Virus record (IMG/VR): IMGVR_UViG_3300013383_000018
Source: a virus
Lineage: Duplodnaviria > Heunggongvirae > Uroviricota > Caudoviricetes
Reading direction: 5' to 3' (one strand)
DNA length: 21,663 bases
In this document: in pieces, positions 1,967-12,133 of the stretch
Numbering within the stretch: position 1 is the stretch's first letter
Layout: every line of letters begins with the position of its first letter
Position numbers and translations under genes: made by a program
Notes under the pieces: model-generated
Databases searched by the model: none
The model's input: the letters and a program-made list of their open reading frames with translations, nothing else
What the model was told of the DNA's origin: nothing

Positions 1967-2368
1967 TTAAGCAACCTCCTTTGCTCCTACCAACTTTGCG
2001 ATGTGTCGGAGCGTATCAATATCGGCGTTGAAGAAATCATGGTTCCACAGCCAGAAGTCTGCGTACTCAATGCGCTTATACGGCTGACAGGTTGGGTCTT
2101 CCCAGACCTTGTCCCATCGATTTTGATAATTCGCATCGCGCTTTGCGAGCGTCTTTTGAATGGCTTGTGTTAATTTTCCACGGAGCATTCCTGCGCCATC
2201 GTCGTCACGGGCAAAGAACTGATGCGCGTTCTCGCTTGTTACAACGCAGAGGAGCTTGTCACCGTAAAAGATATATCCATTGGCTTCTTCACACATGGTC
2301 ATAGCGGGAAGATTTACTTCGCCGCAAATTGCTTTGTCCTTGAAGCGTCTATGCACAACATATTTCAT
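1967..2368 (-). CDS. 133-aa hypothetical protein overlapping the RT 3' end (start revised from 2479 to 2368)
   Basis: ATG at 2368 (MKYVVHRRFKDKAICG...) is preceded by GAGGAAAAAAGG and overlaps the RT stop (2349-2351) by 20 nt. The 37-aa extension in the ORF track lies inside RT and is probably not translated. Confidence 0.75.
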   Translation of the reverse strand: MKYVVHRRFKDKAICGEVNLPAMTMCEEANGYIFYGDKLLCVVTSENAHQFFARDDDGAGMLRGKLTQAIQKTLAKRDANYQNRWDKVWEDPTCQPYKRIEYADFWLWNHDFFNADIDTLRHIAKLVGAKEVA

Positions 2369-3518
2369 CCTTTTTTCCTCTTTCTCTAAAGTTTTCAATT
2401 CGCTCCGGCGAAAAACCGAAAACCGAATAAAAAAGCCTACGCAACCGAAGCACGCGATTGTGGTCGTCGTAGGATTCAAAGTATGCGAGCATTCCGTTCA
2501 CCGAAGTCCAGAGGTCATCGTATGACATTTCTCCATTCTGGATTTTTGTACGGAATGCTTTTATTTTTCTTCGTGCCCGCTTTACTCCATCACGATTTCC
2601 GTTCATCACAACACGACCAGTTTCGGTCAAAATAAATTTTGCTTTGCAATAACGGAACGGCTTTGTGAGCGGGATAATTCTTGACTTTGCTTTGCTGACA
2701 GTTAGCTTGAGACTCTCTGCCTTTGCCACAATCAGAGCCATGATTTCTTTAGCGTCTCGGTCAGGTGGAACAATGACGTAATAATCGTCCATGTAATGAC
2801 CGGCGCACTTGATAGAGAGCTGGCATTTGATAAAGTTGTCCAGTGCAGACGGAAACGCAATCATTTCTGCCTGACTTGGTTCAACACCAAGGGGCAGACC
2901 AACTCCGCCCGAAACAGTGTTGACAACATCGTCTCCGATTTTTCTGATATCTGGGTTCAGCAATAGCTTCTCATGCCGCTTGAAGATTTCTTCATGGGAC
3001 ACAGATGGGAAGAACTGTTTGAAGTCAATCAGAATCACATTCCCATCTCGTCCATAACGACGGAAGTGCCAGCGTAAGTCCTCTTTTAACATTCTCTTTG
3101 AGAACTCAAAGCCCTTGCCTTCAAGACTGGCGCCGTTGTTGTAAATCATCTCAGGACGATACAACGGTAGAAGTACCTTCTTGGTATAAACCTTGTGGAC
3201 TTGACGGTCTTGGATTCTCGGTGCATCAATAGGGCGGGTCTTGCCGCGCTCTGAAATCGTGAAATGTACATATGCACCCGGAATCCATTTTCGCTCAAGC
3301 AATAAACGTCGTCTGCGTGCTGTTCCAGAGAATAGGTGCATCTCAAAACGTTGAGTGCTATTCTTCCAACGAACACCGTTGCAGCATTTCTTTCCGGCTT
3401 TGTACATATCATCGTATCCAAAGACATCATGCAGACCGCCAACTGTGGCGGCACGCCTTAACCTATTCTCTTCGCGCCTTGTCTTACGCCTTTCGTAACG
3501 TCCTTTACGTCTACTCAT
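2349..3518 (-). CDS. DGR reverse transcriptase (389 aa)
   Basis: RT motifs QDRQVHK, LIDFKQFFPSV, GLPLGVEPSQ (the GxPxGxxxSQ form typical of DGR RTs) and YMDD. No group II intron maturase/endonuclease tail. Adjacent to TR and avd. RBS GGAGGGTG at 3529-3536. Confidence 0.96.
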   Translation of the reverse strand: MSRRKGRYERRKTRREENRLRRAATVGGLHDVFGYDDMYKAGKKCCNGVRWKNSTQRFEMHLFSGTARRRRLLLERKWIPGAYVHFTISERGKTRPIDAPRIQDRQVHKVYTKKVLLPLYRPEMIYNNGASLEGKGFEFSKRMLKEDLRWHFRRYGRDGNVILIDFKQFFPSVSHEEIFKRHEKLLLNPDIRKIGDDVVNTVSGGVGLPLGVEPSQAEMIAFPSALDNFIKCQLSIKCAGHYMDDYYVIVPPDRDAKEIMALIVAKAESLKLTVSKAKSRIIPLTKPFRYCKAKFILTETGRVVMNGNRDGVKRARRKIKAFRTKIQNGEMSYDDLWTSVNGMLAYFESYDDHNRVLRLRRLFYSVFGFSPERIENFRERGKKDEICCA

Positions 3519-3955
3519 AAAAATTATTCACCCTCCGTACAGATGTCTTGTAGGGCATCGTCTAATCTGCTTAATTTATGACACATGAAACGAGGTAAGA
3601 TGCATCTCTCGCCATGCACGCACGGAGACTCCGGCGGCGTTCGTGTCAAAATATCAAAGGGTAGTTTCGGATTTTCATCACGGGAAGTATTTCTCCTTTC
3701 GTAAGGGTCATAGTTCACCCTTTGGGCTACTACGATTGACCCAGACCATTTCTGGTTTACGAAATCCGGGGCGACGCCGTTGGAATACCTTGCGTTGTTA
3801 TTGTTCGCGTTGCCGTTCGTGTTCACATTGCAGAAGTTGTTGCTGTTGTTGTAATTAGGAGAACGCTCCCACCACCAAGCAGTGGAACAGAGAGAGGCAA
3901 AAGCCTCCCAACCGACAGGTTTTACAGAAATACACCCATAAATTTTCATAGACGT
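3519..3955 (-). ncRNA. Putative DGR template RNA (TR plus structured flanks/spacer between avd and RT)
   Basis: Lies between avd and RT as in Bordetella BPP-1. Stems 3' of TR on the minus strand: ACCA-GAAA-TGGT (3745-3756), AAGGGT/ACCCTT (3703-3722), and CAAAGGGT/ACCCTTTG (3717-3724 with 3655-3662). Boundaries are inferred. Confidence 0.6.
3761..3888 (-). repeat. DGR template repeat (TR), 128 nt
   Basis: Ungapped match to 4630-4757 with 19 mismatches, every one at a coding-strand A of this copy. In the VR frame it reads STAWWWERSPNYNNSNNFCNVNTNGNANNNNARYSNGVAPDF, with 14 AAY codons and 37 adenines. Confidence 0.97.
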
Positions 3956-4411
3956 TTACCGGCTCTTATCGCTTTTCAACACATTGGTCAAAAGACCATT
4001 TTCTGCATCGATTAAATCACCAAGTTCCTGCGCCATGTGCTCCAGCTTTTTCTTCGCGTCTGACGCACCGACAGAGTTTCCGCTACCGGTCGTAAAACAA
4101 CCGGACGGGTTCGTCATCATCAAGTCGTAACAATGAGCAAGGTGGACATCAAGAGCCATCAGGGAGGCTCTCGCTTCGAGCAGATGCTGCTTACGAAGTT
4201 CTTTTCGTGCCGCATCAGATGGATAGATGCTGTTTGCTTTTTCTGCGTGGTCTACAACTTCTGAGGCAAGCTCCGACACGGACTTAGATACGAGCCGGGA
4301 GTACCGAGATGACAACCTCGACAGGAAAGCGATGGTTTGGATGTAGATTTTGTTCGCCACGTTGACGAATTCAGCCTTACTTTCAGACCTGTGTGCTTTT
4401 AGGACTGACAT
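3956..4411 (-). CDS. avd: DGR accessory variability determinant (Avd-like four-helix-bundle protein, 151 aa)
   Basis: Size, predicted all-helical sequence, MSVLKAHRSES start and position immediately 5' of TR/RT. Strong RBS GAAAGGAG at 4419-4426. Confidence 0.85.
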   Translation of the reverse strand: MSVLKAHRSESKAEFVNVANKIYIQTIAFLSRLSSRYSRLVSKSVSELASEVVDHAEKANSIYPSDAARKELRKQHLLEARASLMALDVHLAHCYDLMMTNPSGCFTTGSGNSVGASDAKKKLEHMAQELGDLIDAENGLLTNVLKSDKSR

Positions 4412-4620: not shown

Positions 4621-6678
4621 TTAGACGCGGAAAGCCGGGGCGACGCCGAAGGAACACCTCGCGAAGTTATTGTCCGCGTTGCCGTTCGTGCCCACATCGC
4701 AGAAGGCGCCGCTGTTGCCGTAACGAGGAGAACGCTCCCACCACCAAGCAGTGGAACCTGTTGCGCTGTGACGGTATTTCACCTTCGAATTTCCAGCAGA
4801 GTAATAGGCATACTGCGCCTGATAGTTCTTTTCGGCAGAGTTCGCATAGGTGCGTGTACCGAAAATCTCATACTCAGCCAGCAACGGAAGGTAGTCTGTG
4901 GTCTTAGTAACATAAGACGCATTGTCACTACCACCGCCCGTATTGTCTGTGTAGATAGTCATCGGCTGCATCACAGCGCGGAGGTCTGACGGAAGTGCAG
5001 CCATTAGCGTATTTGCGACAGGGTTTGTTGCAGTTGTTGCTGTGGCATCACCATCATTCGTGTTCGTTGAGCCGAGTACATCGTATCGCAGGTCACAGCC
5101 CTTCCAGCCACCAGAGTTGGTGTTTGAGCTGTGGTTCATATTGAAATACTTGGTTCCGTTTGTTGAGTAGCCATCGTACTTGCCATCAACTAAACAAATA
5201 TCTTTGCCACCAGACAATGCGGTTTTGAATGTGCCAAATGTGATACCGTTACCTTCCTTGCTGCTATTGTGGTTAAAGCCAATAATGTAGGCATAGTAAG
5301 TACCGGTCACAGCCTGTGTGCCAACAGTACCATTTACGGTCACAGCTTTGCAGTCTCCAACCGACCAATAACTTGCACCCGTACCAGAAACACTGTGAAT
5401 AGCCGCCCAAGAGTTGTCATTCAGCGTAGCAAGAATAAACTCTGCTGTAACTTTGACAGTCTTACTTGCCGGTGCAGAATAGTTCGTACCAGCAGTGCAG
5501 CTCACGGTGATAGTAGCTTCGCCATTTGTTTGGTGGACGTGAGAAACGGTAACTGTATTCCCGCTACGGGAAACAGTGGCAACGCCAGTTGCGCTGGAGG
5601 TCACGCTCAGCGTGCCATCGTGGTTGCCGCCAATCGTGAACGTATCAGTAAGCTTACTCAAGCTAAGCTTGATTGTTGTCTTACTCACAGTCAACGTACC
5701 AGTCGCTTTACCAATAGACCAAACAACGTTCTTGGCGGTAGTCACCCCATCAGACCAGCGATAGTCGGTTTTCGGCGTAAAAGAAGCCGTGTAATTGCCT
5801 GCGTTCGTGCCGGATGTCGTACCGCCAATCGTCATATAAGTCGTGTTATAATTGCTCCAACTCGGAGACTGAGAAGACTTATTGTAGGTCAGTGTACCGC
5901 TCTGGGCGGGTACGTTCGCAATCGTGATACGGTTTGCTGTACCAGTCGTCCGCTGAGACGTAGAGGTGTTGATGCCGCCGTCCGTGGTCTCTGGGAAGAA
6001 AGCAATGTAATACTTCGTTCCGTTTGTCAGACCGGTAATCGTCAACGGCGTGCTGGAATATTGGTTGCGTGTCGTGACCTTTAGCGTATAAACAGCGCCG
6101 GAATCATCCTTGCTTGTAGGGTAGCTGCCGCTCTTCACAACAATTGTGGTGCTTGCCCACGATGCCAGAGTCACGCCATCGGCAGAGATAGAAGCAGAAG
6201 GGTCAGTCCACTTAACGGTCATCTTGCCGTTGCCTGCTTCAGAAGAGGCACTCATGCCGGTAACATTCCAGCTTGTGATGCCTGCAACCTGAACAGTCGG
6301 AATCGCATTGAATTCGTCATCCGTGCTGTCAGTGTAGGCGTTTGCAGTTGTATAGGGGAAGAACTTATAGTAATACTTCGTTCCGTTGGACAGACCACTG
6401 TCACAGAAGTAAGTATTCTTATAAGCGTCTCGTGTTTTACTATCGAGAACGATAGTGCCGTCACGACGGCTTGTAGGCGCGGAGCCCGCCTTACGAACAA
6501 GCAGGGTACCGCCCCAAGCAGCAATCGTAGAACCTGCCACAACGAGGTCATCGGGGTCAGTCCACTTCACATAGACTTTCCCAGAAGAAACCTGCGTGGT
6601 AATACCGGAGACAGCCGCAAGTGTCAGACCGCCACTGCCTGAACCTGCGCCGCCGGGGAAGTTAGATAAAATAGGCAT
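4621..6678 (-). CDS. DGR target protein (685 aa), putative receptor-binding/adhesin: two FN3-like repeats, two Ig-like segments and a C-terminal DUF6273-like (C-type-lectin-fold) variable domain
   Basis: RBS AAAGGAGG. Duplicated KWTDP...GL(S/T)NGTKYY..FFP domains. Thr/Ser-rich beta-sandwich segments. The C-terminal domain (SWAAI...IIGFNH...GGWKGCDLR...WWWERSP) carries VR. Confidence 0.9.
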   Translation of the reverse strand: MPILSNFPGGAGSGSGGLTLAAVSGITTQVSSGKVYVKWTDPDDLVVAGSTIAAWGGTLLVRKAGSAPTSRRDGTIVLDSKTRDAYKNTYFCDSGLSNGTKYYYKFFPYTTANAYTDSTDDEFNAIPTVQVAGITSWNVTGMSASSEAGNGKMTVKWTDPSASISADGVTLASWASTTIVVKSGSYPTSKDDSGAVYTLKVTTRNQYSSTPLTITGLTNGTKYYIAFFPETTDGGINTSTSQRTTGTANRITIANVPAQSGTLTYNKSSQSPSWSNYNTTYMTIGGTTSGTNAGNYTASFTPKTDYRWSDGVTTAKNVVWSIGKATGTLTVSKTTIKLSLSKLTDTFTIGGNHDGTLSVTSSATGVATVSRSGNTVTVSHVHQTNGEATITVSCTAGTNYSAPASKTVKVTAEFILATLNDNSWAAIHSVSGTGASYWSVGDCKAVTVNGTVGTQAVTGTYYAYIIGFNHNSSKEGNGITFGTFKTALSGGKDICLVDGKYDGYSTNGTKYFNMNHSSNTNSGGWKGCDLRYDVLGSTNTNDGDATATTATNPVANTLMAALPSDLRAVMQPMTIYTDNTGGGSDNASYVTKTTDYLPLLAEYEIFGTRTYANSAEKNYQAQYAYYSAGNSKVKYRHSATGSTAWWWERSPRYGNSGAFCDVGTNGNADNNFARCSFGVAPAFRV
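4630..4757 (-). repeat. DGR variable repeat (VR) at the 3' end of the target gene
   Basis: Encodes STAWWWERSPRYGNSGAFCDVGTNGNADNNFARCSFGVAPAF. It has 12 A>G, 4 A>T and 3 A>C changes relative to TR, giving 11 amino-acid changes plus one silent change. A 14-nt GC-rich tract (4635-4648) lies at its 3' end. Confidence 0.97.
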
Positions 6679-6692
6679 TTTGCGCCCCTCCT

Positions 6693-7097
6693 TTAACCTA
6701 AGAGAATGATGTAAACAGGAATGTCACGCTCTGGCATCTCGCCATCAGCGGCGATAGTCAATGTACCATCAGCCTGTCCGATAACTGAGAGCATTGCCTC
6801 ACGAGCAATTTCACGCTGTTCTGCAGTCGCATTATGAGCAACAGAGATTGTGCCGTTCTGCGATGCAGTAAGACCGCTAATCGTGAGGGTTTGCGTGTAG
6901 GGCGCATCGACACCAACCCATGCAGAAGCAAGCAGGGTGGTATTGATTGCCACGCTGCTGTTTGCTTTCTCACCAAGGGCAGCATCGATTTTTACCATAT
7001 TGGAGTTCTCGGTTCCATTCATCTGGTTGCGCCATTCCTGAAAGCGAGTTGAACTGTCATCGGTCAAATAGAGGTTGTAGTTTGGTGTATTACTCAT
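6693..7097 (-). CDS. 134-aa putative short fibre/adaptor protein
   Basis: RBS GAAAGGA. The N-terminal TPNYNL...KIDAAL pattern is typical of fibre anchors. The C-terminal ~85 aa are paralogous to the C-terminus of 7114-7578 (both end DIPVxxILLG). Confidence 0.75.
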   Translation of the reverse strand: MSNTPNYNLYLTDDSSTRFQEWRNQMNGTENSNMVKIDAALGEKANSSVAINTTLLASAWVGVDAPYTQTLTISGLTASQNGTISVAHNATAEQREIAREAMLSVIGQADGTLTIAADGEMPERDIPVYIILLG

Positions 7098-7113: not shown

Positions 7114-7578
7114 TCAACCAAGCAGAATAACAACGACTGGAATATCACAAGTGGGTACAGCCCCATTTGCGGCAATCGTTACAGAACCCGCTGCTTGACC
7201 ACAGATATACATTTCTGCTTCAGACGCAGCAGAGAGCTGTTCATCGGTAATGCTCTGAGACAAGCCGATAACACCATTCTGCGTTGCACCAAGTCCAGCA
7301 ATAGTAAGTGTCTGTTGTCCACTCGCCCATCCTGCCGCAGTCAACGTAGCGGTAACAGCATTGCTTGCATCACACTTTCCAGCAAGAGCAGTCAGCATCT
7401 CTTCATCATCAAAGGGGAGCTGAGAATACTTCTTTGTACCGTCTCCAACTTTCTTACGAACGCTACCACTGGCTGTATCAACAATGATGATTTCGCCATC
7501 CAAAAGGATGGGGTCTTTTGCTGTCCAGTTTGCGCTCGTGTCTCGCTTTTGTCTGATTCGTGCATTATATTCAGCCAT
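7114..7578 (-). CDS. 154-aa fibre/adaptor protein with an Mtd-N-like domain (start revised from 7620 to 7578)
   Basis: GGAGG at 7586-7590 lies 7 nt before ATG 7578. RIRQKRDTSANWTAKDPILLDGE...KVGDGTKKYSQLPF matches the major-tropism-determinant N-terminal / hyaluronidase-N pattern. Confidence 0.8.
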   Translation of the reverse strand: MAEYNARIRQKRDTSANWTAKDPILLDGEIIIVDTASGSVRKKVGDGTKKYSQLPFDDEEMLTALAGKCDASNAVTATLTAAGWASGQQTLTIAGLGATQNGVIGLSQSITDEQLSAASEAEMYICGQAAGSVTIAANGAVPTCDIPVVVILLG

Positions 7579-7594
7579 ACAGTAGCCTCCCTGT

Positions 7595-7642
7595 AAGCGA
7601 AGCCCCGCCGTGCATAACACACGACGGGGTTGCTTGTGTTTT
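7595..7642. terminator. Intergenic GC-rich hairpin (terminator or mRNA-stabilising stem)
   Basis: CCCCGTCGTG-7 nt-CACGGCGGGG on the minus strand (10 bp including one G.U, 7603-7629). A T-rich tail is present only on the plus strand. Confidence 0.5.
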
Positions 7643-7650
7643 ATTTATGC

Positions 7651-9117
7651 TCAGATGTTAACAGAGGCGCTGCCACAGTTGAACACAATATAACCGGAAG
7701 CCTGCTTCAGCTCGGTAATATCATGCTCATGGTTGCCAGCAGCCTTGCTGTCCCAATCCGCGACCTTCTCAGCGGAGATACCGTCGAGAACGGTCTTGTT
7801 TGCGTGCTCATGCTGCTTGGCAACGGCACCATCCCACGCATCGACCTTATCCTGAGAGATAGTGTCGAGGATAGTCTTGTTATCATGCTTGTGCGCCTTC
7901 TGTTCAGCGGCGTCCCACTTTGCCTTATCGCCGGTAACAATCTTGTCCAGCTCAGCCTTGTTCGTATGGCTGTGCGCCTTGCCGATAGCAGACTGCACGT
8001 CAGCATGGAGCTGTGCCAGAGTCACGGAACCCTCGGTGAGAGTAGCAGTCACCTTATGGTCAGCGCTGACATCAATCACAATCTGGTCGCCAACCTTGGA
8101 GCCAGAAGTGACGTACTCAATCAGGCTGCCAACATTGATGTAGATGTTGTCTTCAGTAGCGTTGGCAAGAACCAGATGCAGGTATGTACCAGCCTCGCCC
8201 CATGCACCAGCCTCAGCCTTTGTCTCAACCGTACCGGACTCAACAACCATATCCTTGGGGATATCGATATTCACATCCAGATTGGTAGCCGTCTGCTTGA
8301 TGTTGTAGCGCTTTGCCACGCCATCCGGGGTAGAAGGAGTGACAGTTACGGTATAGTCGGTCTGAGCAGGAATCTTACCGATTTTCTCATCGACGTAACC
8401 AACAACGGTCGTAGCAGTAGCACCTTCGGGCAACGCACCGACGCGCTCACCCAGAGCGTCAACGGCAGTTTGCGCATCATCGCCAGCCTTCTTCGCTGCC
8501 GCAATTGCTGCGTCCTTACCATCTGCGTAGGTCTTTGCATCTTCCAGCGCCTTAGTCGCAGCGCCAGCCGCGTCAAAAGCACCTTCGTCTTTATAGGCAG
8601 CAGTGCCAAGACCGTGAACCTTCACGTCTTCGCCATTGAACTTGACAGTACCATTTGCAGTGCCTTCAGCCAGCGTATAAACGGTCTCGTCAGGAATAGT
8701 GATTGTGCTCACCAAATTCCAAGTAGATGTACCCTTTGCCTGAGAATACAGGTGGAACTTGCGGCTATTGTCCGCATCGACCTCCAGCTTGTACTGGGTA
8801 TCAGTATCCTGAATCTCGCCTGAGATGTAGTCGGACAGACCCTCAATCTCGTTTGCGGAATAGGTGGGTTTGGAAGCTGCTTTTGCCCAGTCGTACACGT
8901 CAGCAGCCAAACCAGCAGTGAACTGCAGCTCGCTGAATTTGTGTGCGCCGTCGCCAACCTTAAACAGAACAGCAGGCTCCTTCGCTACGGCACCAGTCTC
9001 AGCCGGAACGACAACAACGGCGACTTCACCGACAAGCAGTTGGGGGTCTTTTTCAACCCACTGTGCGTAGGTGTCATACTTCAGAGAAATGCGGGTATTA
9101 AATGTTGTAGTAGCCAT
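7651..9117 (-). CDS. 488-aa tail/head fibre protein with an Mtd-N-like domain and C-terminal HxH repeats
   Basis: TRISLKYDTYAQW...DPQLLVGE...FKVGDGAHKFSELQF, an Ala-rich coiled-coil and three 27-aa HxH repeats. RBS AAAGGACGG. Confidence 0.8.
   Translation of the reverse strand: MATTTFNTRISLKYDTYAQWVEKDPQLLVGEVAVVVVPAETGAVAKEPAVLFKVGDGAHKFSELQFTAGLAADVYDWAKAASKPTYSANEIEGLSDYISGEIQDTDTQYKLEVDADNSRKFHLYSQAKGTSTWNLVSTITIPDETVYTLAEGTANGTVKFNGEDVKVHGLGTAAYKDEGAFDAAGAATKALEDAKTYADGKDAAIAAAKKAGDDAQTAVDALGERVGALPEGATATTVVGYVDEKIGKIPAQTDYTVTVTPSTPDGVAKRYNIKQTATNLDVNIDIPKDMVVESGTVETKAEAGAWGEAGTYLHLVLANATEDNIYINVGSLIEYVTSGSKVGDQIVIDVSADHKVTATLTEGSVTLAQLHADVQSAIGKAHSHTNKAELDKIVTGDKAKWDAAEQKAHKHDNKTILDTISQDKVDAWDGAVAKQHEHANKTVLDGISAEKVADWDSKAAGNHEHDITELKQASGYIVFNCGSASVNI
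7723..7977 (-). repeat. Three 27-aa repeats plus a fourth HxH motif
   Basis: AHSHTNKAELDKI..WD / AHKHDNKTILDTI..WD / QHEHANKTVLDGI..WD / NHEH, with an exact 81-nt period. Confidence 0.9.
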
Positions 9118-9152
9118 AAATGATTACCGTCCTTTTTATGTGGTTTTAGTTA

Positions 9153-9185
9153 GAGCGGAGCACAAAGCTCCGCTCATTGTGTTTT
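9153..9185. terminator. Intergenic perfect 9-bp hairpin (terminator or mRNA-stabilising stem)
   Basis: GAGCGGAGC-ACAAA-GCTCCGCTC at 9153-9175, followed on the plus strand by ATTGTGTTTTT. Confidence 0.55.
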
Positions 9186-9188
9186 TAA

Positions 9189-10484
9189 TCAGACAGCGGC
9201 ATTACCGCCATCGAGAATCAGTGTATCACCATCAGACTGAACCAGTTTATTCATGTTAAGGCTATTGACCTCCATGCTTCCGTCTTTAGCGACAGCGACC
9301 TTATTCTCTCCGGTGGAACTGGTGACAACACCAGCAGTATCACCAGCAAATGGAATGTTAACTGCCTTCTCAGAGATGTTCAACGCGGCACCAGCCAGCT
9401 TGATAATCTCGATGAGGTTCTTGTTTGCGCCCGCTTCAACGCCGCCAAGCTTTTCTTTCTCTTCATCGGTGTAGTCGTTGGCACTCAAGCCTTTACCTGC
9501 AACTTTATCAACCTTACCAGCCAGAGCATCAGGGAGACCAGTAACTTTAGCCGGAGCGACCTCCTTGACTTCGAGTTTACCCTCTGCAGAAACAGTGAAC
9601 TCGTCAGAAACACTCTTGACGTAATTGGCTTCTGCGCCCTCTGGCAGAGCAACCAACTTTTCCTTCAGCGCAGTCGTAAAGTCCTCGGTAGAGAGCCCCT
9701 TACCATCTACCTTGTCAACTTTGTTGGCAATGGCAGTAGCAATAGCTTCGTTCATCTGCTCTGTGGTGGAATAGTTGTCGAGGTTTACACTCACATCATC
9801 CAGACGAACAACTTCGGTACCTACCTTTGCGTAGATGTCGTAGAAGCCAGTGTCGGCATTCATCACGAGATAGAGAACATTATCCTTGGCTTCAGAAGCC
9901 GCAGGGACTGCATCAACCTTCGTGAAGCTGGCATGACCGGTCTCGGCGATAGCCGTCTTGATTGCCTCCGCGATTGCAGTAGCGGTCATAGCATCAGTGA
10001 TACCATAACCTTCAAGTGTGGTAGCCTTATCAGCTTTACCAGTCTGGAGGTTTTGAATGTCCTGTGTATGACCAGCGACGGTATCAGCCAGACCGGAAAC
10101 GGTGCTGGTATCGGGTGTGTACCACTCAATAGCAGTACCAGCCGCATTGATGCGAGGCTGCTGACCTGCGGTGGCGGAACCAAAGCCCTTCAGAGCGACC
10201 TTGCCATCAACAATCTCGATGGACTTGCCATCGCCAAGGACGGCAGAACCGACTGCCTTCAGGGTCTTGTCCGGCTGAATAATGTACAGGTCGGCGGAAG
10301 ATTCCGTTACGACGCAAACATTTTCGCCATAAAAATAAGTGCCGTCCGAACTACCGACTTCAACAGCGGTAGCGGCGGCAGCTTCAGCAGCACTCAGAGA
10401 AGAGAAGTAATAACGTGCGTCCAGAGGGAACGCAGTTTGCGGATTAAATGAAACCGCAAAATTCAGTTTGCCAAAATCAGCCAT
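9189..10484 (-). CDS. 431-aa fibre-like structural protein
   Basis: RBS GGAGGTG. It has an N-terminal FPLDAR motif, two KVDKVxGKGLSxxD(F/Y)TxxxKEKL repeats typical of phage fibre shafts, and ends ILDGGNAAV. Confidence 0.8.
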   Translation of the reverse strand: MADFGKLNFAVSFNPQTAFPLDARYYFSSLSAAEAAAATAVEVGSSDGTYFYGENVCVVTESSADLYIIQPDKTLKAVGSAVLGDGKSIEIVDGKVALKGFGSATAGQQPRINAAGTAIEWYTPDTSTVSGLADTVAGHTQDIQNLQTGKADKATTLEGYGITDAMTATAIAEAIKTAIAETGHASFTKVDAVPAASEAKDNVLYLVMNADTGFYDIYAKVGTEVVRLDDVSVNLDNYSTTEQMNEAIATAIANKVDKVDGKGLSTEDFTTALKEKLVALPEGAEANYVKSVSDEFTVSAEGKLEVKEVAPAKVTGLPDALAGKVDKVAGKGLSANDYTDEEKEKLGGVEAGANKNLIEIIKLAGAALNISEKAVNIPFAGDTAGVVTSSTGENKVAVAKDGSMEVNSLNMNKLVQSDGDTLILDGGNAAV

Positions 10485-10501
10485 TATGCGTCACCTCCAT
10501 A

Positions 10502-11734
10502 TTAGATTGTCACTTTATAGGTGTTTGCAGTATCGTTGGCATTAGCCATATCCATCACATACACCTTATAGTCGATTGCCTGATAACCGTTCGCGCCCTC
10601 GACAGAAACGACGGTCTTGGTGAAAGCGGTCTTGACCTCCGCGTTCATACCATTCACGTCCTGCACGGAGCTAACATCACGCAGCGTTGCGGGATACGCG
10701 AACACAACGCGAATGGCGCCAACGGGGATTGCGAGGTTGAAGCTGTTGCCAGCCGCCAGAGCCTTACCACTCTTACCGCTAAGACCACGCACAAGTGCAG
10801 AGTTCACTTCGCCATCCTTCGCTTCCAGCGTTCCGTAGAAGCTGTTGCGGTAGCCAGTGATTTTGCCTGTCGCCTTGCTCTTATTACCGGCAGCAATTTT
10901 ACCGGCGGCATACTCATTACCGAGGTTCGTTACAGGAACAGCACCCTCACCGTGAGTCGCAGTAGCCGTAATAGCGTAGCTGGTAACGTCGCCAACTGTC
11001 AGCTCATCGAACGAACCGGAGGCAGTATCCTTGGTAGCAGTACCGTCGGTTACACTCCAAGCGGTAGCAGTAATACCAGTTGCAGGACCGTATGTATAGC
11101 TACCCGCGCTCAGAGAAGCGGTGTACGCAGGAACGACTTTTGAACCAACCTCATACGCTGCAATTTGCTTACAAGTAATTGTCACGGCGGGTTGTGTTGC
11201 TGTCGGATTCTTTTCCTTCGCCAGAATGGACGCGAGAACATCCTTAACATTCTTGCCAGATGCGGCAATCGTACCAGAGCCAGAGCTCGGAACGGTCAGA
11301 ACACCAATGGCAGCAGTGTACGTCAGGTCATCGGCAAAGTAAACATTCTCGGCACTGTAGTTTCCATCCATCGCAGCCCACACAGAGCCATCGTAGACAT
11401 AGGCAGTGTAAGAATACTTGCCATCGGCAATCAGAGATTTGACAACAAAGATGTCATCTTTCTCAGCAGTAACGCCAGCCGCAGTCAGAACGCGAGTAAT
11501 GACATCATTGTCACTTTCGCCCTCTGCCCTTACGCCTTCATAATGGGCAGCACTTGCTCCACTGATAGCCTTCAGGTTCTCATAAGTGGTAACGCCATCA
11601 CCAATCTTGAGAGTGCCAAGCTCCAAGTCAAAGCAAGGCTCACCAGCGGCAGGTACAACGTCTTTGTTAGCAAGCCAATTTGCCGTTGTGTCACGCCGGA
11701 CTTGGATTTGGGTTTTCATCGTAGTATTGGGCAT
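10502..11734 (-). CDS. 410-aa fibre protein with an Mtd-N-like domain
   Basis: RBS AAGGAGG. QIQVRRDTTANWLANKDVVPAAGEPCFD...LKIGDGVTTYENL is followed by Thr/Ala-rich beta domains. Confidence 0.8.
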   Translation of the reverse strand: MPNTTMKTQIQVRRDTTANWLANKDVVPAAGEPCFDLELGTLKIGDGVTTYENLKAISGASAAHYEGVRAEGESDNDVITRVLTAAGVTAEKDDIFVVKSLIADGKYSYTAYVYDGSVWAAMDGNYSAENVYFADDLTYTAAIGVLTVPSSGSGTIAASGKNVKDVLASILAKEKNPTATQPAVTITCKQIAAYEVGSKVVPAYTASLSAGSYTYGPATGITATAWSVTDGTATKDTASGSFDELTVGDVTSYAITATATHGEGAVPVTNLGNEYAAGKIAAGNKSKATGKITGYRNSFYGTLEAKDGEVNSALVRGLSGKSGKALAAGNSFNLAIPVGAIRVVFAYPATLRDVSSVQDVNGMNAEVKTAFTKTVVSVEGANGYQAIDYKVYVMDMANANDTANTYKVTI

Positions 11735-11770
11735 AACTTTCCTCCTTCAAAATATTTTTGCAGAATGGTT

Positions 11771-12133
11771 TCATTGGATACCGTTCGCAGCGCCGCCATC
11801 AATCACTTTAACATCGCCAACGCTAATGTCGCCTGCATTAACAGGAGACAATTTCCCGTCAGCAGAAACGATATACGGAACCCAATCAGAACCGTTATGC
11901 ACTGAAATAATGTGTCCAGCACAATCGTAGGTCTTGACCCACGCTTGTGCCTCGGTTAACGTCTCAAACTGTTTGCGCTCGGAGATATTTTTCATCTCAC
12001 CATTCGCATCGTAGAAATACAGTTCGGACTCTTTGCTGTCGCTGGTGATAATCAGACTATCTTTCGGGATAGTACCGGAAGCAATTGCAGCGGAAATTCT
12101 ACCTTTCTTTCCGTAAGCGACTCTCACGCCCAT
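11771..12133 (-). CDS. 120-aa hypothetical structural protein ending in IDGGAA
   Basis: RBS GGAGGTG 7 nt upstream. In-operon and co-oriented. Confidence 0.75.
   Translation of the reverse strand: MGVRVAYGKKGRISAAIASGTIPKDSLIITSDSKESELYFYDANGEMKNISERKQFETLTEAQAWVKTYDCAGHIISVHNGSDWVPYIVSADGKLSPVNAGDISVGDVKVIDGGAANGIQ

What the first reader, a model, noticed from the sequence alone, without database searches (positions are those of the whole stretch)
7114..12133. Plug-and-socket code: every Mtd-N gene is preceded by a gene ending in a DGGxA-like peptide
Seen in 3 of 3 cases: 11771-12133 ends VIDGGAANGIQ and the next gene (10502-11734) starts with Mtd-N. 9189-10484 ends ILDGGNAAV and the next (7651-9117) starts with Mtd-N. 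7651-9117 ends VFNCGSASVNI and the next (7114-7578) starts with Mtd-N. Genes not followed by an Mtd-N gene lack the motif (for example ...TYKVTI and ...VILLG). Established: in BPP-1 the Mtd N-terminal domain is the fibre-attached end and is fused to the variable domain. Inference: here Mtd-N is uncoupled from VR and reused as a socket for a short C-terminal hydrophobic-(D/N)-(G/C)-G-x-A plug, building a daisy-chained, multi-gene fibre in gene order that ends near the DGR adhesin. I know of no description of this rule.
Basis: partly seen in the sequence, partly recalled or inferred. Interest (0 to 1): 0.7.

Follow-up and report, generated by a model that had tools for sequence, protein, structure and literature searches.

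The report
Peptide plug joining phage fibre proteins
In this gut prophage and in many unrelated phages, one fibre protein ends in a short peptide and the next gene starts with a small three-part cap that probably grips it, so separately encoded fibre pieces can be joined end to end; the binding is predicted, not measured.

Summary
Observation confirmed. All three Mtd-N genes follow a gene ending in a hydrophobic-[DN]-[GC]-G peptide; no other gene in the window ends that way.

The rule holds beyond this window. The motif ends 118/224 genes directly before an Mtd-N gene, against 27/1859 other genes of the same loci, in 34 of 60 unrelated upstream families. Selecting contigs on the plug alone, 28/49 have Mtd-N right after it. 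A Shine-Dalgarno artefact is excluded. A 3:3 model puts the plug on Mtd-N strand 1 (ipSAE 0.82, best control 0.05).

- This is probably Mtd-N's ordinary role, not a reuse. BPP-1 bbp9 and T4 gp36 end in a related plug.
- The 'code' has only two visible classes.
- Gene order is not always kept.
- DGG joints alone give two chain segments here. A second, different conserved joint probably bridges 10502-11734 to 9189-10484.
- The link to the DGR adhesin is untested.

I found no paper or PDB complex describing the motif. The scan noted the same rule before on other DNA.

The parts
11771..12133 (-). 120-aa adaptor; two predicted beta-alpha-beta-beta-beta repeats, then plug 1
11786..11809 (-). plug 1 (aa 109-116)
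10502..11734 (-). 410-aa fibre piece; Mtd-N socket at the N-terminus, no DGG plug
11555..11722 (-). Mtd-N socket 1 (about aa 5-60)
   Evidence: Pfam PF18454 E=4e-13
10502..10870 (-). C-terminal beta-sandwich of the 410-aa protein; candidate half of a second joint type
9189..10484 (-). 431-aa fibre piece; no Mtd-N, ends in plug 2
10239..10484 (-). N-terminal 'PLDAR' domain of the 431-aa protein; candidate partner of the beta-sandwich above
9198..9221 (-). plug 2 (aa 422-429), the peptide modelled on socket 2
7651..9117 (-). 488-aa fibre piece with both a socket and a plug
8908..9108 (-). Mtd-N socket 2 (with a loop insertion; missed by Pfam)
   Evidence: own profile E=1.6e-18; PHROG 19976
7666..7689 (-). 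plug 3 (aa 477-484, NCG variant)
7114..7578 (-). 154-aa protein: Mtd-N socket 3 plus a small C-terminal domain repeated in 6693-7097
6693..7097 (-). 134-aa protein with the same small C-terminal domain; possible holder of the DGR target (inferred)
4621..6678 (-). DGR target (DUF6273 at the C-terminus, VR at 4630-4757)
2349..4411 (-). DGR cassette context: avd-like gene 3956-4411, TR 3761-3888, RT-like gene 2349-3518 (gene names by position and sequence reading, not by profile scan)
   Evidence: 19 of 19 TR-VR differences at TR adenines

Best explanation
Mtd-N (PF18454, also the N-terminal cap of streptococcal phage hyaluronidases) is a trimeric socket. A short C-terminal peptide of another virion protein, hydrophobic-[DN]-x-G-x-A, lies along the first strand of each subunit, up to three peptides per trimer, and joins the two proteins end to end. 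The partner gene is usually the one directly upstream. In this prophage the joints are 120-aa to 410-aa, 431-aa to 488-aa, and 488-aa to 154-aa. A different conserved joint (C-terminal beta-sandwich to 'PLDAR' domain) probably links 410-aa to 431-aa, giving one five-gene fibre. Shown: motif, adjacency and enrichment. Modelled: the 431-488 interface. Inferred: the other two DGG joints, the second joint type, the assembly order, and display of the DGR target at the tip.
For: Forward: 118/224 genes before Mtd-N end in the strict motif against 27/1859 other genes of the same loci, odds ratio about 75 (kin inflate the p-value). After clustering on the non-motif body, 34 of 60 unrelated upstream families carry it. 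Reverse: contigs picked only by DNA coding for IDGGTA-stop have Mtd-N right after the stop in 28/49 non-redundant cases, and 60 of 77 such loci hold an Mtd-N gene. Named phages of five host phyla obey it: Xanthomonas DoCa10, Arthrobacter Popper, Streptococcus Javan290, Cellulophaga phi19:2, crAss001, Gordonia Dardanus, Microbacterium Hubbs, cyanophage S-TIP37. Complex of 3 sockets and 3 tails: ipSAE 0.82, 0.82, 0.78, best control 0.05, run agreement at least 79%, partner pLDDT at least 72. That mark was reached by 51 of 78 solved complexes and 2 of 108 mismatched pairs. Contacts are plug residues 421-431 on socket residues 3-15. No solved plug-socket complex turned up in sequence searches. BPP-1-type sockets follow a [DN]-[FLYW]-G plug in 8 of 10 phages, while only 2 of 168 HylP-type plugs have a large middle residue. 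T4 gp36 ends in D-F-G-Y-Y, gp37 starts with a weak Mtd-N match, and gp36 is known to bind the gp37 N-terminal region (PMC3004832).
Against: No binding has been measured, and only one joint was modelled. Blind neighbouring genes passed the same test in 7 of 44 cases. About 47% of Mtd-N genes lack a strict plug directly upstream (about 18% with a relaxed motif, among non-Mtd upstream genes). Some named phages have none (S-WAM1, GMA6, S-SSM7). About a dozen plug proteins, mostly one family, have no Mtd-N gene in the DNA held. Runs of plug-less Mtd-N genes exist (L261, L291). Loci were gathered from five seed proteins, not a random sample.
Confidence: 0.8

Rival explanations
1. The DGG ending is a by-product of the next gene's Shine-Dalgarno site (GGAGG) lying in the last codons of overlapping genes.
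For: In coupled pairs the first glycine codon is GGA in 38 of 67 cases, at a suitable distance from the next start.
Against: Enrichment is as strong when the gap is 20 nt or more (39/68 against 4/301). Coupled genes before other genes lack the motif (12/528 against 73/132). Spaced plugs mostly use GGC (23 of 31). In this window the gaps are 36, 71 and 72 nt, with separate ribosome sites.
Confidence: 0.03
2. The joint is real but promiscuous. Any plug fits any socket of its class, so the fibre is branched or mixed, and gene order does not give assembly order.
For: G, C, A and S plugs precede near-identical sockets. Many adaptors carry two plugs. Socket-plus-plug-only proteins of 64-97 aa exist. 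Plugs can be one or two genes from the nearest socket.
Against: In this phage family each position keeps its own plug and its own diverged socket across relatives. A natural deletion variant keeps the plug-socket order. A double plug does not predict two socket genes (6/86 against 3/66).
Confidence: 0.35
3. The pairing reflects a co-inherited DNA cassette (end of one gene plus start of the next, moved together) with no protein contact; the motif serves the upstream protein's own folding.
For: Fibre genes are mosaic and recombine at such junctions; the adjacency data alone cannot show contact.
Against: The motif sits on 34 unrelated protein bodies, from 65-aa peptides to central tail proteins. 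It is conserved as protein across variable gaps and codons. Its middle residue changes with socket class. The model places it on the socket.
Confidence: 0.1

Closest known systems
Bordetella phage BPP-1 Mtd N-terminal beta-prism (Pfam Mtd_N PF18454; PDB 1YU0)
   Same: Same domain family at the N-terminus. [quoted passage not shown] The upstream fibre gene bbp9 ends in a related plug.
   Different: No binding peptide is named in the papers I could read. Here the domain heads three genes in a row, none of which is the DGR target.
T4 long tail fibre, gp36-gp37 junction
   Same: Fibre built end to end from adjacent genes; trimeric gp36 binds the N-terminal region of gp37 (PMC3004832). gp36 ends in a D-F-G plug-like tail and the gp37 N-terminus matches my Mtd-N profile weakly (E=0.003 among 13 sequences).
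   Different: No gp36 structure was found, and the contact residues are not described in what I read. Homology is weak, so this is a likely distant case, not a proven one.
Streptococcus phage hyaluronidase HylP N-terminal cap (PDB 2C3F, 6X3M, 2DP5)
   Same: Closest solved homologues of this window's sockets (profile E=2e-16). Upstream genes in streptococcal prophages end in the plug.
   Different: My sequence searches found only the hyaluronidase chains, with no sign of a plug partner.
Conserved-peptide attachment of receptor-binding proteins to T4gp10-like branching domains (K1-5, SP6, G7C, Klebsiella KP32/KP34; PMC6872550)
   Same: A 7-11 residue peptide docks one virion protein on a domain of another.
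   Different: Opposite polarity: an N-terminal peptide on the distal protein and the domain on the proximal one. Different domain, and the peptide differs between phage groups.

Membership tests
Mtd_N (PF18454) | Profile match at the N-terminus | tested here: met
   10502-11734 is over the cut-off and 7114-7578 just under. 7651-9117 matches only PHROG 19976 and my own profile.
Mtd_N (PF18454) | Trimeric N-terminal cap | tested here: inconclusive
   Modelled as a confident trimer (pLDDT 88-89), but the copy number was my choice.
BPP-1 Mtd-type DGR adhesin | Mtd-N fused to the variable C-type lectin domain | tested here: not met
   The VR lies in 4621-6678, which has no Mtd-N; the three Mtd-N genes have no VR.
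T4 gp36-gp37 type junction | Mtd-N-like gp37 cap and plug-like gp36 tail | tested here: inconclusive
   Weak profile match and a D-F-G tail; no structure found.
T4gp10-like anchor-branch system | Conserved peptide at the N-terminus of the distal protein | tested here: not met
   The peptide is C-terminal and on the upstream protein.
T4gp10-like anchor-branch system | T4gp10-like branching domain | tested here: inconclusive
   No such Pfam or PHROG hit in these genes; no fold-level test was run for it.
Diversity-generating retroelement (context) | TR-VR pair with adenine-specific differences beside an RT gene | tested here: met
   19 of 19 differences are at TR adenines; the RT was read from sequence only.
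DGG plug / Mtd-N socket (proposed) | Physical binding of peptide and domain | not testable with these tools
   Only predicted.

The most novel reading that the evidence does not exclude
Mtd-N plus its plug is a general, sequence-readable connector of tailed phages, with at least two matched classes (HylP-type with a small middle residue; BPP-1/T4-type with a large one). Together with a second and a third joint type it builds, in this gut phage family, a five-gene fibre whose order can be read from the genome and whose tip carries the DGR-diversified adhesin.
Probability: 0.4. Interest if true: 0.8.

Novelty: new variant of a known kind. Interest (0 to 1): 0.62.

Why it matters
It assigns a concrete function to a Pfam domain usually read as 'tropism-related', and names the likely partner peptide. 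It gives testable answers to how BPP-1 Mtd, streptococcal phage hyaluronidases, crAss001 gp25/gp26 and possibly T4 gp37 are attached, where the structures I could check do not resolve the joint. It would let fibre architecture be predicted from gene ends, and would explain how fibre tips are exchanged between unrelated phages.

Tried and rejected
- Shine-Dalgarno by-product: rejected.
- 'Two plugs mean two socket genes': true in crAss001 and several Saccharibacteria loci, not in general (6/86 against 3/66).
- Residue-level code inside the HylP class: not seen.
- Natural fusions of plug and internal Mtd-N: none found. P0022, P0002 and P0062 are single-member mosaics, set aside as probable assembly chimeras; L513 also looks scrambled.
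- Is the 120-aa protein a cryptic Mtd-N? The profile comparison is not significant. The fold search gives only weak rows (collagen XV/XVIII trimerization domain Z about 5; Mtd 1YU0 residues 6-49 Z 3.3). Left open.
- The 410-aa C-terminal domain has no clear solved relative (best Z 5.4). Atlas look-ups named nothing.
- The window's own genome is not held. A phylum-wide genome search found Mtd_N in only 3 of 301 genomes.
- Literature: no paper with 'DGG motif' plus phage tail, or with PF18454. The BPP-1 cryo-EM paper was not held, so prior description cannot be excluded.

Full report
Setting. The window is the tail and fibre region of a gut prophage, all on the minus strand: tape-measure fragment, distal tail, a 1294-aa tail protein with an S74 chaperone domain, several small genes, then the fibre array and a DGR. 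The DGR is real: TR 3761-3888 and VR 4630-4757 differ at 19 positions, all TR adenines. Close relatives are gut viral contigs. The window's own assembly is not held.

Observation. The three C-termini and gene coordinates are as reported. Mtd-N is present in 10502-11734 (Pfam E=4e-13), 7114-7578 (E=2e-5, under the cut-off) and 7651-9117 (PHROG 19976; own profile E=1.6e-18). The strict motif occurs four times in the window's 21 genes, three of them as the terminal plugs. The chance per gene end is about 0.008.

Forward test. I gathered about 350 loci with four Mtd-N seeds, from viral contigs, genomes and named phages, built a profile and classed every gene end. The strict motif is in the last 16 residues of 118/224 distinct genes directly before an Mtd-N gene, and 27/1859 other genes. 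Many of those 27 are in fact next to or near an Mtd-N gene that my gene caller misplaced. With a relaxed motif, 82% of non-Mtd upstream genes score, against 7% background. Kin inflate the p-value, so I clustered upstream proteins on the part outside the motif: 34 of 60 unrelated families carry it. Plug carriers range from a 65-aa peptide in Arthrobacter phage Popper to the 771-aa tail protein of Xanthomonas phage DoCa10.

Reverse test. A DNA pattern for IDGGTA-stop alone returned 92 viral stretches, 80 of them listed. All 80 matches lay at the end of an open frame of at least 26 codons. Of 49 non-redundant cases, 28 have Mtd-N right after the stop (27 as the very next gene). About eight more have one 0.6-1.5 kb on, and about a dozen, mostly one family, have none in the DNA held. 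Mtd-N makes up 72 of 751 genes in those loci.

Artefact check. GGA-GGN could be a ribosome site for an overlapping gene. Enrichment persists at gaps of 20 nt or more (39/68 against 4/301) and against coupled controls (73/132 against 12/528). Spaced plugs use GGC. This window's gaps are 36-72 nt.

Model. Three copies of the 488-aa protein's residues 1-105 with three copies of the 431-aa tail (396-431) gave ipSAE 0.82, 0.82, 0.78 against a best control of 0.05, with at least 79% contact agreement and partner pLDDT at least 72. The mark was reached by 51 of 78 solved complexes and 2 of 108 mismatches; 7 of 44 blind neighbours also passed in an older run. The contacts are tail residues 421-431 against socket residues 3-15, the first strand. 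I read this as strand addition; that reading is inference from the contact list. Sequence searches of the PDB found only hyaluronidase chains for the socket, and nothing for T4 gp36.

Is there a code? Inside the HylP-type class, plugs with G, C, A or S in the middle precede nearly identical sockets, so no fine code is visible. Between classes there is one. Sockets like BPP-1 Mtd follow a tail with a large middle residue (F, L, Y, W) in 7 of 9 phages checked plus BPP-1 itself, against 2 of 168 in the HylP class. T4 fits the large-residue class weakly, and gp36 is known to bind the gp37 N-terminal region (PMC3004832). This lead came from an earlier scan note and was checked here. Double plugs are common but do not predict two socket genes.

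Is it one chain? DGG joints give 120 to 410, and 431 to 488 to 154. The 410-aa protein ends in a well-predicted beta-sandwich (pLDDT 92). It has 1031 representatives, and it is C-terminal in nearly all of the best 150. In the loci I could read, the next intact gene starts with the same 'PLDAR' domain as the 431-aa protein, whatever the flanking domains. This includes FP_Brigit; in a few loci an unrelated gene is inserted between them, and cr131_1 gave no clear match. A variant seen on 24 contigs deletes both domains and fuses 410-aa residues 1-260 to 431-aa residues 247-431, keeping plug-socket order on both sides. This suggests a second joint and one five-gene fibre, but that contact was not modelled. 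The 154-aa and 134-aa proteins share a small terminal domain. In relatives it is followed by a gene with a short glycine-containing N-terminal peptide, here the DGR target. That third joint is a guess.

Comparison with what is known. Mtd is thought to attach by its N-terminal beta-prism (PMC10743442), with two trimers per fibre (PMC2408619). The crAss001 fibres are poorly resolved (PMC10172136), and its gp24 has two plugs before two Mtd-N genes. Peptide docking of receptor-binding proteins is known with the opposite polarity (PMC6872550). I found no description of this C-terminal motif, but the library is incomplete and the BPP-1 cryo-EM paper was not available.

Verdict. A real, widespread and probably undescribed peptide-domain joint, of a known general kind. 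Confidence in binding is about 0.8, and in a strict gene-order chain ending at the DGR adhesin about 0.4. The scan recorded the same rule earlier in other genomes; my scores rest on the tests above.

Noticed in passing
window:10239-10870: Candidate second joint: the C-terminal beta-sandwich of the 410-aa protein is followed by a 'PLDAR'-domain gene in nearly every readable locus, with unrelated flanks; no Pfam, no clear solved relative.
   Followed up: partly
window:6600-7340: A small terminal domain is repeated in 7114-7578 and 6693-7097 and precedes genes with a short glycine-containing N-terminal peptide (the DGR target here); possible third joint.
   Followed up: partly
window:11771-12133: Two predicted beta-alpha-beta-beta-beta repeats with weak likeness to collagen XV/XVIII trimerization domains and the Mtd beta-prism; possibly a distant Mtd-N-like fold.
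   Followed up: partly
L510:5001-6326: Natural in-frame deletion fusing the 410-aa and 431-aa genes at a short similar stretch, seen on 24 contigs.
   Followed up: yes
L153:3554-6038; L162:4585-7067: Saccharibacteria genome assemblies carry a three-gene unit, a double-plug 135-aa gene and two Mtd-N genes, with no evident phage genes beside it.
   Followed up: no
L260:5000-5195; L140:4994-5288: Proteins of 64-97 aa that are little more than a socket and a plug, close behind a likely major capsid gene; could be spacers or self-stacking head-fibre units.
   Followed up: no
L031, L032, L046, L056: Unrelated genes, some endonuclease-like by eye, are inserted between plug and socket genes or between the second-joint genes.
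   Followed up: no
L357, L363, L364, L373, L384: A family of about 150-aa proteins ends in a perfect plug, but no Mtd-N gene lies in the DNA held.
   Followed up: partly
window:12153-12725: The gene before the 120-aa adaptor ends in a short hydrophobic tail conserved across relatives; possibly another terminal docking strand.
   Followed up: no
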